A stretch of DNA of 64,000 nt from Octopus vulgaris. Lineage: Eukaryota. Numbering within the stretch: the first letter of the stretch is position 1; every line of letters begins with the position of its first letter. The stretch is taken from positions 56,978,001 through 57,042,000 of the forward strand of contig OX597829.1 in NCBI GenBank assembly GCA_951406725.2. Direction: 5' to 3'. Below, piece after piece: positions 38,650 through 50,357 of this stretch. A program made the position numbers and the translations under genes. The notes below the pieces were generated by a model. The model saw nothing but the letters and a program-made list of their open reading frames with translations, ran no database searches and was not told the origin of the DNA.

Positions 38650-39249
38650 CTAGGATCTCATAAAACCTTCTACAAATGGAGAAGACCTTTAATGCAGCCT
38701 CGTATTAAAAACGAAAAAGAAAAAAAATCATTGTTCCGTCTAAAAAGAGGAATAATACATCTATTATAATCTTAAATACACTTATGTCTAAATAAAAGAG
38801 GGGATGGTTTCAGTTTGTGTTTAGGGGTTTGCTTCGGCAGCGATAATCTGGGATTGGACAAGAATAAGAACGTTTTCAGATTTCTAAAAATATTCGTGGT
38901 TTCACTGAACTAAAACATAAAGCGAAGACGGCACACCACCCGGAGTACGTTTTGAAAAGGGACAACTAGTACACTACAAATGTATAACACCACCAGCACT
39001 ACAATGACATCAAGAAAAAAAAAAAAATAAGACCAAAAAAAAAACAAAACAAAAAAACAATTACAGCAACAGCAAGAATAACAAAAAACAAACAAAAAGG
39101 AACAAGATATTGGAATATTGTCGGTAACCCAATTTCGCACGACTAGCGTCAAAATGGGGGGGGGGGGGAGTGTTTTTCGTATAATTAAGGATGAATTAGC
39201 TCGTTAGAAAATCTCCTTTAAGAGATGGAAGTTGTAACTATACTGAGAA

Positions 39250-39421
39250 ATAATGTTTATCGCCACTTCAACATGGCTGTTCCGTAGGACAGCTGGAGCG
39301 AACTACTGCTATCTTTAGCAGACGGGTATCCACCACTGAGGATGAGCACAAATAGCTCGAAACCGGACGGTCTGGTTGTCTTGTCGTCGCTGGAAGATGG
39401 CGGGGTTCGTTCCCCTGCTTG

Positions 39422-39481
<60 letters not shown>

Positions 39482-39594
39482 TCGGGTACAGATTGCATCA
39501 ATCACCAGCTGGAGGAGTTGCCCGCCTGGGGTTAAAAATTGTAATAACGTTGGTTCCTATGAAACTGCCATGTTGAAGTGGCGATAAATATTAT
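39250..39594. mobile_element. Inverted-repeat-bounded non-autonomous element carrying the hammerhead and a central (TA)n; Penelope-like or MITE-like
   Basis: 39250-39289 ataatgtttatcgccacttcaacatggctgttccgtagga matches the reverse complement of 39555-39594 with about 4 mismatches in 40. Confidence 0.7.
39332..39376 (+). ncRNA. Type I hammerhead ribozyme motif
   Basis: acca (stem I) CTGAGGA t GAGC-acaaata-GCTC (stem II) GAAA ccg-ga-cgg (stem III) TC tggt (stem I'). All core nucleotides are present, with GUC cleavage after 39372 and one extra U before stem II. Confidence 0.8.
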
Positions 39595-40615
39595 GGATGA
39601 ATTAATTTCTCTTTATCAAGAAAACTTTGTTGCTTGCAGAAACCCCTTATCTTGGCTTCTTGAGTCCACCACAAAGAAACATTTTTTTGTTGTTCTTTTG
39701 TTAAGAGACAGTTCTTTAATTCTGTCTTGTTCCTTGTTTTAAACCACCACAGCCAAAAATAATGTTAAAATAATATTTAAACTTGACCAAATAATCAGAT
39801 TAAAAAAAAAGGGGGAACTCAATAATCTTATCCAAAACAGATAGACAAGACAAAAATATAAATAAAAACTAAAAAAAGAAGGGGTGAAGAATACCATTTA
39901 TTCCCTTCTGTTTTAATAGAATATACCATTAAAATTATTCGGAACTGATTAATGTAACATGCTGTTCATATATGCTACATACCACAATAGTGAAAACATT
40001 CATTAAAATTTTGCTTTGCTTAATCACGAACAACATTTTATTAACTTATCATTATTATTGTTGTTGTTGTTGTTATCATCATCATCGTCATACAAACCTA
40101 TTTTTGACTGAATACAGTCATAGCTCAGTTTGTGTTGTGTGTTTAAAAAGAACCATTCTTAATGCTTGTTTTGAATGCTCTTCACTTCCTTCCACGTGTG
40201 TAGGTATGTGTGTCTGTTCGTTTACACACATGTACGCATGCATGCATCAGTTTGTGTGGAAACTAGGAGGGGATCTAGATTAAGCTGTTTCACATTATGT
40301 GCGTGTAGATGCGAGAGAAAGAGTTTGTGTGTGTGTGTGTGTGTGCGTGCGCGCGTACGTGCAGCGTGGTTATGTGCAAGCGCGTGCAGCAGGGAGAGAA
40401 AGTGGGTGGATGGACGGGTGGGGGCGACATTCTGTGTTTTTTCTTTTCTTTTTTTTTTATTCAATCCCGGTCTAGAATGGTTTGTTCGGGAGAAAACTGG
40501 GTAAGCTCAGTGTGAGGTAAATGTTCAGTTTTGAACCGTTGCAAGCTAATAACCCGAGTTAGGGTATGGGTAGGAGGGGTAACGTGGCCAGCAGGATTTC
40601 CTGAGGGATATGGTC

Positions 40616-49638: not shown

Positions 49639-50357
49639 CATGTGTGTGTGTGTGTGGGTGTTCGACTAAAAACCCTCTAAGGGGGTGCTTCAGCATGGCC
49701 GCAGTCAAATTGCTGAAACAAGTAAAAGATAAAGGATGTCATGAGGCTACGATTCCTTTAGCTTAATATGTACCGTGTCTATGAAACCGATGTGTGATTC
49801 CTGAGCTTTCTCGAATCAATAAACTATGAGAAACAACAATAGAACAGCATCTTATCCTGTGAATACGTTGTGAACGCTGGAAATAAACATCAGTCCCGTA
49901 AAATTTTGTGATTCAGGAGCACAAGAGAGAAAAAAAGGGGTCTTGCTCATAGAGAGCTACATAAATTTTTCTTTGTAAATTAGCTATGTGAGGTGAGACA
50001 TGTGTGTGTGTGTGTGGGTGTTCGACTAAAAACCCTCTAAGGGGGTGCTTCAGCATGGCCGCAGTCAAATTGCTGAAACAAGTAAAAGATAAAGGATGTC
50101 ATGAGGCTACGATTCCTTTAGTTTAATATGTACCGTGTCTATGAAACCGATGTGTGATTCCTGAGCTTTCTCGAATCAATAAACTATCAGAAACAACAAT
50201 AGAACAGCATCTTATCCTGTGAATACGTTGTGAACGCTGGAAATAAACATCAGTCCCGTAAAATTTTGTGATTCAGGAGCACAAGAGAGAAAAAAAGGGG
50301 TCTTGCTCATAGAGAGCTACATAAATTTTTCTTTGTAAATTAGCTATGTGAGGTGAG
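49639..50357 (+). repeat. Near-perfect 360-bp tandem duplication
   Basis: 49639-49997 versus 49999-50357, period exactly 360; two substitutions seen (gctta/gttta, tatga/tatca). Confidence 0.95.

What the first reader, a model, noticed from the sequence alone, without database searches (positions are those of the whole stretch)
39332..39376. Intact-core type I hammerhead ribozyme
Seen: acca-CTGAGGA-t-GAGC(acaaata)GCTC-GAAA-ccg(ga)cgg-TC-tggt, with three paired stems, the CUGANGA and GAAA boxes and a GUC site after 39372. Established: type I hammerheads with a short stem III occur in Penelope-like elements and retrozymes and often cleave as dimers. Inference: this is a potentially active self-cleaving RNA. 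The extra U after A9 and the tight stem III loop may require dimeric folding or loop II-stem I contacts.
Basis: partly seen in the sequence, partly recalled or inferred. Interest (0 to 1): 0.85.

Follow-up and report, generated by a model that had tools for sequence, protein, structure and literature searches.

The report
Hammerhead in a fossil retrozyme copy
A complete self-cutting 'hammerhead' RNA motif is encoded here, but it lies in one old, lone copy of a 360-base repeat that was likely spread by Penelope-type jumping genes, so it is a new member of a known kind, and a young sister repeat in the same genome is the better thing to study.

Summary
The motif is real: all 11 core bases, a GUC site (cut after 39372) and three helices (strict descriptor: 1 hit; 4 of 200 shuffles). 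It is not a stand-alone gene. It lies in one copy (39184-39604) of a dispersed ~360-nt non-coding repeat (family A) whose helices show two-sided changes. Copies are 5'-truncated, partly tandem, often have an inverted 5' arm, and end at one of two fixed points ~57 nt apart, never at the ribozyme cut: the 'tail' mark of Penelope-like elements. Family A is old (this copy's closest relative 89%); 19 of 55 copies keep the core, 18.8 expected from independent decay. This copy has no second hammerhead in 64 kb and a weakened helix I; I put its own cleavage at about 35-40%. The extra U is a family trait (55 of 60) known from other hammerheads. A homologous young family B (353 nt, 99% identical, tandem arrays, canonical hammerhead) shows the same two ends in 14 of 14 inverted insertions. 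Verdict: non-LTR retrozyme / non-autonomous Penelope-like element; new member of a known kind. Cleavage, circular RNA and the helper element are untested or unidentified.

The parts
39184..39198 (+). Left copy of a 15-nt target-site duplication (1 mismatch); overlaps the outer end of the inverted arm by a few bases
   Evidence: (D6)
39194..39290 (-). Inverted 5' arm: 3' part of the unit (about unit 216-309), running out to the long end, i.e. carrying the ~57-nt tail; holds no hammerhead
   Evidence: (I1)
39291..39593 (+). Sense arm: 5'-truncated unit (about unit 1-260), stopping at the short end
39296..39415 (+). Rod-like hairpin with the hammerhead at its tip; whole family model matched at 128 bits (this copy is in the model)
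39321..39385 (+). Type I hammerhead with extended helix I (39321-39335 / 39373-39385), internal loop 39327-39329 / 39379, C-U mismatch 39331/39377
   Evidence: sequence
39336..39343 (+). CUGAGGA box (C3-A9) and extra U at 39343
   Evidence: extra U in 55 of 60 rows
39344..39358 (+). Helix II, 4 bp, 7-nt loop ending in CAAAUA, the loop II hexamer of the Rfam Hammerhead_1 consensus
39359..39372 (+). GAAA box, short helix III and GUC triplet; predicted cut between 39372 and 39373
   Evidence: sequence
39426..39473 (.). (TA)24 microsatellite grown at the unit's internal ATATAT motif (inferred from the other copies)
39590..39604 (+). Right copy of the target-site duplication
   Evidence: (D6)

Best explanation
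The hammerhead lies in one old, lone copy of a ~360-nt non-coding repeat family, a non-LTR retrozyme that was likely copied into the genome by the reverse transcriptase and endonuclease of a Penelope-like element. Shown: the repeat family, its head-to-tail unit, the hammerhead with paired changes in its helices, 5' truncation, inverted 5' arms, two fixed 3' ends about 57 nt apart, target-site duplications, decay, a homologous young family B, and intact Penelope-like ORFs in the genome. Inferred: when the family was alive, tandem copies were transcribed, the hammerheads (probably as dimers through the palindromic helix III, helped by loop II-helix I contacts) cut the RNA into unit lengths that would be circularised; a Penelope-like protein bound the RNA, nicked AT-rich DNA on both strands and started reverse transcription at two internal sites about 175 and 230 nt downstream of the ribozyme cut, giving head-to-head insertions with a tail on one arm only, as here. 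This copy was probably dead on arrival as a source element (one hammerhead, less than one full unit in sense) and has drifted since; that its RNA still cuts itself if read through I put at 35-40%.
For: Family: 402 and 1337 first-look candidates, 40 scored each, 73-87% identity. Unit and tandem form: 33 of 57 loci cross the unit-to-unit junction; L024 holds two hammerheads 360 nt apart. Structure under selection in the source elements: 82.6% of cells paired against 79.0 in shuffles (0 of 500) and 26-37% when slid; two-sided changes AU>GC in 9, GC>CG in 7 (helix II), CG>GC in 3 (helix I) of 60 rows; core columns vary 9.1% against 15.8% elsewhere. Penelope marks: sense 3' ends at unit 245-272 in 24 and 306-323 in 24 of 57 loci; among 29 head-to-head loci the 12 with both ends classed are 11 long+short, 1 short+short, 0 long+long; end repeats of 12 nt or more in 5 of 29 against 2 of 320 controls. 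Family B: colinear homologue (profile E 6e-16; global score 137 against 70+-11, best of 200 shuffles 97), 14 of 14 head-to-head insertions have one end at 171-174 and the other at 216-220, 22 of 26 loci lie in TA-rich flanks. The intact 781-aa RT + GIY-YIG family also has two ends and sits in (TA)n. The tail is described as unique to PLEs and as the stretch between two RT start sites (PMC11167929). Decay: nearest neighbour of this copy 88.9%, median 83.7%; 19 of 55 intact cores against 18.8 expected; 6 of 21 intact cores and 1 of 21 with helices too in a set picked by the tail.
Against: No autonomous element sharing sequence with the unit was found: no match in the own ends of the Penelope-like loci examined, and the tail of A is no closer to the tail of the one candidate helper than shuffles (432 of 1000). 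The number of pairs with a two-sided change (11) does not exceed the shuffles (11.0; 317 of 500), and cells count inherited changes many times. 17 of 29 head-to-head loci of A have an end outside both classes. Long tandem arrays of A were not seen (at most about 2.3 units). No cleavage, circular RNA or transcript was shown. Folding energies leave out tertiary contacts and give the young family a similar gap (6.5 kcal/mol) as this copy (6.4), so they do not decide activity.
Confidence: 0.85

Rival explanations
1. The unit is the pseudo-LTR of an autonomous Penelope-like element, and this is a heavily 5'-truncated solo end of it.
For: Same insertion marks. Penelope-like ORF remnants lie within 1.5 kb in 6 of 82 family A loci. 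PLE pLTRs carry type I hammerheads with a base between 9 and 10.1 (PMC4209133). Only 40 candidates per search were scored.
Against: Upstream of a unit lies the end of another unit in 33 of 57 loci, and in no locus examined an ORF running into the unit in the same direction: the six remnants are 0.5-1.4 kb away or inverted. The profile finds no unit in the own 3' ends of the PLE families sampled. The hammerhead is canonical (4-bp helix II, long helix I), not the minimal PLE type.
Confidence: 0.08
2. This copy has been taken over by the host as an active ribozyme in a transcript, like the conserved intronic HH9/HH10 hammerheads of amniotes.
For: Core intact; it is one of 10 of 60 rows with core and helices; it differs least from the commonest letters (7.6%, median 15.8%); best Rfam hit is HH9.
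Against: The set was found with this copy as query, which biases those figures; intact cores are no commoner than independent decay predicts; helix I carries a mismatch found in 4 of 60 rows and its predicted pairing is 0.02 against 0.85 in L003; no Pfam family in 200 of 325 window ORFs tested; HH9 score is a third of the cut-off.
Confidence: 0.03
3. The 40-bp inverted repeats are terminal inverted repeats of a miniature DNA transposon that happens to carry a hammerhead.
For: 39250-39289 and 39555-39594 are 90% complementary and there is a target-site duplication.
Against: The inverted arm is present in only 20 of 57 loci, varies in length, reaches 57 nt past the sense end, and is a piece of the same unit; many copies are head-to-tail.
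Confidence: 0.02
4. The motif is a chance arrangement.
For: Core boxes alone are not above chance; Rfam scores are below cut-off; the short fragment's best fold lacks helix I.
Against: 4 of 200 shuffles; family-wide pairing and two-sided changes; the homologous family B has a hammerhead at the same place in the unit with different helix sequences and matches Hammerhead_1 at 32.2 bits, E 2.9e-6.
Confidence: 0.01

Closest known systems
Animal non-LTR retrozymes, e.g. the 350-390-bp Mytilus galloprovincialis repeats (Cervera & de la Pena 2020, PMC7229834; Li, Clavereau & Pollet 2026, 10.64898/2026.07.22.740005)
   Same: Non-coding unit of 353-360 nt, GC 39-42%, one type I hammerhead per unit, dispersed monomers and head-to-tail copies, strongly self-paired circle (z -3.6 for an A unit, -7.3 for a B unit), target-site duplications longer than 4 bp, PLEs in the same genome.
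   Different: Family A is old and mostly broken; arrays are short; this copy is a solo and would not count as 'active' by the two-hammerhead rule of the 2026 preprint; circular RNA not shown; inverted arms and the two-end tail are not mentioned in those two texts (word searches); no sequence link to a pLTR found, unlike 24 of 57 Xenopus families with TE matches.
Penelope-like elements and their pLTR hammerheads (PMC4209133, PMC8557442, PMC11167929)
   Same: 5' truncation, partial tandems, inverted 5' arm, tail on one end only, AT-rich/(TA)n targets, extra base between 9 and 10.1, palindromic helix III.
   Different: No ORF; tail about 57 nt (A) and 48 nt (B) against the 30-40 nt described; canonical rather than minimal hammerhead.
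Rfam Hammerhead_1 (RF00163) and Hammerhead_HH9 (RF02275), clan CL00010
   Same: Core, 6-bp helix I with distal internal loop, 4-bp helix II, loop II ending in CAAAUA.
   Different: Extra U and one extra loop II base; scores below gathering (17.9 of 52 for HH9; family B 32.2 of 34 for Hammerhead_1); multi-copy and decaying, not ultraconserved.

Membership tests
Type I hammerhead ribozyme | Core C3 U4 G5 A6 N7 G8 A9, G12 A13 A14, A15.1-U16.1, NUH triplet | tested here: met
Type I hammerhead ribozyme | Three helices, helix I open-ended, with pairing kept among relatives | tested here: met
   (82.6% paired, two-sided changes in helices I and II); one C-U mismatch in this copy
Type I hammerhead ribozyme | Loop II-helix I tertiary contact | tested here: inconclusive
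   Loop II ends in the Rfam hexamer and the helix I internal loop is kept in A and B; contact not modelled
Type I hammerhead ribozyme | Self-cleavage | not testable with these tools
   Folding only: hammerhead fold 6.4 kcal/mol above the ensemble, rank 9 of 24 core-intact rows
Rfam Hammerhead_1 / HH9 | Score at or above the gathering threshold | tested here: not met
   not among the 6 RF00163 matches of 73 scored in the genome
Non-LTR retrozyme | Non-coding 150-450-nt unit with one type I hammerhead, GC under 50% | tested here: met
   no Pfam match in the ORFs over the element
Non-LTR retrozyme | Head-to-tail copies with a hammerhead in consecutive units | tested here: met
   Family level: L024, L061, L069; family B up to 5 intact cores in a row. 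This copy is a solo
Non-LTR retrozyme | Expressed as unit-length linear and circular RNA | not testable with these tools
   Only assembled contigs were available
Penelope-like element, non-autonomous | 5' truncation, inverted 5' arm, tail on one end only | tested here: met
   family B
Penelope-like element, non-autonomous | Shared terminal sequence with an autonomous partner | tested here: inconclusive
   None found in the PLE loci sampled, a small part of 6136 GIY-YIG candidates
Penelope-like element, autonomous | RT + GIY-YIG ORF between the repeats | tested here: not met
   tblastn of two PLE ORFs finds nothing in the window
Ultraconserved host hammerheads (HH9/HH10 kind) | Single copy, conserved at the orthologous site across species | tested here: not met
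   Multi-copy and decaying; orthologues could not be fetched, the genome has no relatives in the collection

The most novel reading that the evidence does not exclude
This genome holds two homologous retrozyme families, one fossil (A, the window's) and one alive (B), whose insertions carry the Penelope-only two-start tail at the same places in the unit. That would be direct genomic evidence that animal retrozymes are written into DNA by Penelope-like proteins from internal start sites, not from ribozyme-cut ends, and two head-to-head retrozyme/PLE-ORF junctions (L049/L195, L136/L194) would be single events in which one enzyme dimer copied both RNAs. Family B with the intact 781-aa PLE would give a ready test system for how retrozymes move and what their ribozyme is for.
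Probability: 0.5. Interest if true: 0.55.

Novelty: new member of a known kind. Interest (0 to 1): 0.33.

Why it matters
The single copy matters little. The family matters modestly: how non-LTR retrozymes are mobilised is stated as open in the two main papers (PMC7229834 names PLEs as a strong candidate; the 2026 preprint argues from co-occurrence and trees). The tail and inversion pattern seen here is a mechanistic footprint pointing to PLE proteins, it is conserved between an old and a young family, and the young family makes the question testable. Three paper searches listed no description of a cephalopod retrozyme family; a squid genome paper counts 235 Hammerhead_1 matches (PMC6962438). 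Repeat libraries such as Repbase and Dfam could not be searched and may already hold these units.

Tried and rejected
Expression: no RNA holder listed. Four runs were laid, all contigs; two runs guessed to be RNA hold contigs of this locus (39100-39386 and 39100-39357), neither bridges the cut site by the tool's 31-base rule, so nothing follows on transcription or cleavage. Helper search: the family profile or natural units against 30 GIY-YIG loci, 20 further PLE stretches and 6 RF00163 loci, 7 full-length 781-aa loci and 30 loci of an older PLE family gave only separate A- or B-like insertions, no shared pLTR; tail-to-tail alignment with the older PLE was not significant. Host gene: no Pfam family in 200 of the 325 window ORFs of 55 aa or more; short exons would be missed, so intron or intergenic stays open. 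Minimum-energy folding did not separate live from dead copies. miRNA and pestivirus UTR hits come from the TA repeat and were rejected. The 360-period duplication at 49639-50357 is unrelated to the unit. MITE reading rejected (see rivals). Earlier-findings look-ups by place and sequence were empty. Rows dropped: loci at the same place as another were left out before counts; two near-identical pairs (L023/L055, L061/L068; probably segmental duplicates, not tested) stayed in alignment A1; five rows (the window copy and four picked by core pattern) were left out of the 19-of-55 count; 10 of 31 rows of A2 (one duplicate, nine weak or antisense matches) were left out of the 6-of-21 count; L130 and L131 of family B may be one event duplicated.

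Full report
OBSERVATION. The motif is at the stated place: all 11 core bases, GUC at 39370-39372, helix II of 4 bp. The two boxes alone are not above chance, but a descriptor that also asks for the three helices hits once in the window and in 4 of 200 shuffles. Rfam gives only Hammerhead_HH9 at 17.9 bits (cut-off 52). Helix III has to be drawn as A-U plus two C-G pairs around a 4-nt loop.

SETTING. The window is G000:C16:56978001-57042000 of a 2.8-Gb genome in 227 contigs. Size, contig number and the look of the interspersed repeats suggest an octopus; that label is recalled and comes from no call. No Pfam family was found in 200 of 325 ORFs of 55 aa or more.

THE REPEAT (family A). 39255-39425 found 402 first-look candidates, 40 scored, the others 81-87% identical; a natural 361-nt unit found 1337, 40 scored. 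The unit is about 360 nt and head-to-tail: 33 of 57 loci cross the unit junction. 5' ends are scattered; 3' ends fall at unit 245-272 (24 of 57) or 306-323 (24 of 57), while the ribozyme cut is after unit 83; reading the flanks shows two sharp ends about 57-60 nt apart. 20 of 57 loci have an inverted arm at the 5' end. In a larger set, 29 of 80 loci are head-to-head; of the 12 with both ends in a class, 11 pair a long with a short end; 17 have an end outside both classes; end repeats of 12 nt or more occur in 5 of 29 against 2 of 320 controls. The window copy is such an insertion: inverted arm 39194-39290 with the long end, sense arm 39291-39593 with the short end, a 15-nt duplication on both sides.

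THE RIBOZYME ACROSS COPIES. In 60 aligned copies the named helices are 82.6% paired (shuffles 79.0, 0 of 500; slid 26-37%), with two-sided changes at two pairs of helix II (9 and 7 rows) and one of helix I (3 rows); the count of pairs with any two-sided change does not beat the shuffles. The AU>GC rows fall in at least two parts of a weakly resolved tree. Core columns vary less than the rest (9.1% against 15.8%), which fits selection on the source elements, but whole intact cores number 19 of 55 against 18.8 expected if sites decay independently, and 6 of 21 in a set picked by the tail, 1 of 21 with helices as well. An exact 30-mer of the core occurs twice in the genome, a looser pattern seven times. 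The family is old: nearest neighbour 88.9% for this copy, median 83.7%, end branches 0.12. So the intact core here needs no special explanation.

The extra U is in 55 of 60 rows. A base between positions 9 and 10.1 is listed as a conserved trait of PLE hammerheads (PMC4209133, parts 1-2 of 4 read), and U there raised trans-cleavage 3-4-fold in a viroid hammerhead (PMC3705267, passage). Helix III is a perfect palindrome where 39366 is T (36 of 60 rows); this copy has G (18 of 60), which weakens a dimer helix (-13.3 against -16.4 kcal/mol). A model of the family finds no second hammerhead in the 64 kb, so an intramolecular dimer is excluded. Folding predicts a rival hairpin that takes up the GAAA box and the 3' strand of helix I: helix I pairing 0.02 against 0.85 in L003; the gap to the hammerhead fold is 6.4 kcal/mol, rank 9 of 24 core-intact rows, and 6.5 in young family B. 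These numbers omit tertiary contacts; I put residual cleavage at 35-40%.

A YOUNG SISTER (family B). The family A profile hit a second repeat (E 6e-16): 353 nt, 2060 candidates, the 40 scored at 99%, arrays with up to five intact cores in a row, a canonical hammerhead without the extra U (Hammerhead_1 32.2 bits), colinear with A from cut site to cut site (score 137, shuffles 70+-11) and alike in the tail region (0 of 1000 shuffles). All 14 head-to-head loci among 26 have one end at 171-174 and the other at 216-220; 11 of the 12 others end at 174 (the query ended there, a mild bias); 22 of 26 lie in TA-rich flanks. Both units fold as strongly paired circles (z -7.3, -3.6).

MECHANISM. Inverted 5' arms and a tail on one end only are described for PLEs (PMC8557442, passages); the tail is the stretch between two internal RT start sites, both target strands are cut and extended, and ribozyme cleavage was not needed for insertion in vitro (PMC11167929, parts 1-2 of 4). 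The genome has intact RT + GIY-YIG ORFs of 781 aa with two ends and (TA)n targets. I infer that A was, and B is, copied in trans by such proteins, and that the ribozyme served to cut tandem transcripts into units that circularise, as shown for coral, mussel and axolotl retrozymes (PMC7229834, section 14 and passages). The helper is not identified: no PLE end sampled shares sequence with the units. Two junctions join a retrozyme 5' end head-to-head to a truncated PLE ORF with no TA between (1 of 82 A loci, 1 of 25 B loci); the PLE family at the A junction is of like age (88-92%). They may be co-insertions or later deletions; the PLE arm at the A junction lacks its own 3' end and the B arm ends at an unusual place.

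WHAT IS KNOWN. Non-LTR retrozymes are established, and a 2026 preprint proposes that they are non-autonomous PLEs (10.64898/2026.07.22.740005, parts 1-3 of 5 read); it found cleavage in 1 of 9 dimers tested. Word searches found no 'tail' or inverted-arm discussion in it or in PMC7229834; their supplements were not seen and may list cephalopod motifs. Searches for octopus or cephalopod retrozymes listed no description (listings only, passage on 235 squid Hammerhead_1 matches). Two unchecked AI notes from other genomes describe the same insertion pattern in ribozyme-free repeats; they came after my reading and are not support.

VERDICT. Real hammerhead motif, fossil solo copy of a non-LTR retrozyme family with Penelope-type insertion marks; new member of a known kind; interest 0.33, carried by the family-level footprint and by family B rather than by this copy.

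Noticed in passing
G000:C31:4652307-4652866 (L106/L126), G000:C4:22081770-22084509 (L163), L127-L155: Young 353-nt retrozyme-like family B: 99% identical copies, tandem arrays, canonical type I hammerhead, inserts in (TA)n, two fixed ends 48 nt apart; probably still mobile.
   Followed up: yes
L156-L162 (e.g. G000:C17:42761500-42768500): Intact 781-aa RT + GIY-YIG Penelope-like family with a CxxC linker, many copies with the full ORF, long repetitive 3' region, two 3' ends about 38 nt apart; only a degenerate hammerhead-like motif near its end.
   Followed up: partly
L101:3790-3850, L103, L106, L113: A second PLE family (574-aa open frame in L101) ends with a minimal hammerhead-like motif with a palindromic helix III; in L101 the inverted arm is 100% identical, so recent.
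   Followed up: no
L194:2030-4599 (G000:C17:47711500-47714100) and L195:2919-3745: Head-to-head junctions of a retrozyme arm with a 5'-truncated PLE ORF, without TA between; possible co-insertion events.
   Followed up: partly
L120-L125: Six other Hammerhead_1 matches over the Rfam cut-off, at least two further families; three (L121, L122, L125) have a ~60-nt insert in helix II.
   Followed up: no
L101:4592-4813, L160:733-908, L197:5834-5980: B-like copies at 80-93% identity: intermediate-age relatives that could date the A-to-B succession.
   Followed up: no
window 49639-50357: Two-copy 360-period duplication, 99% identical, next to a (TA)173 run; no match to the retrozyme units; local duplication or assembly artefact.
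   Followed up: partly
L023/L055 and L061/L068: Two pairs of family A copies 98-99% identical on the same contig, far apart: probably segmental duplications.
   Followed up: no
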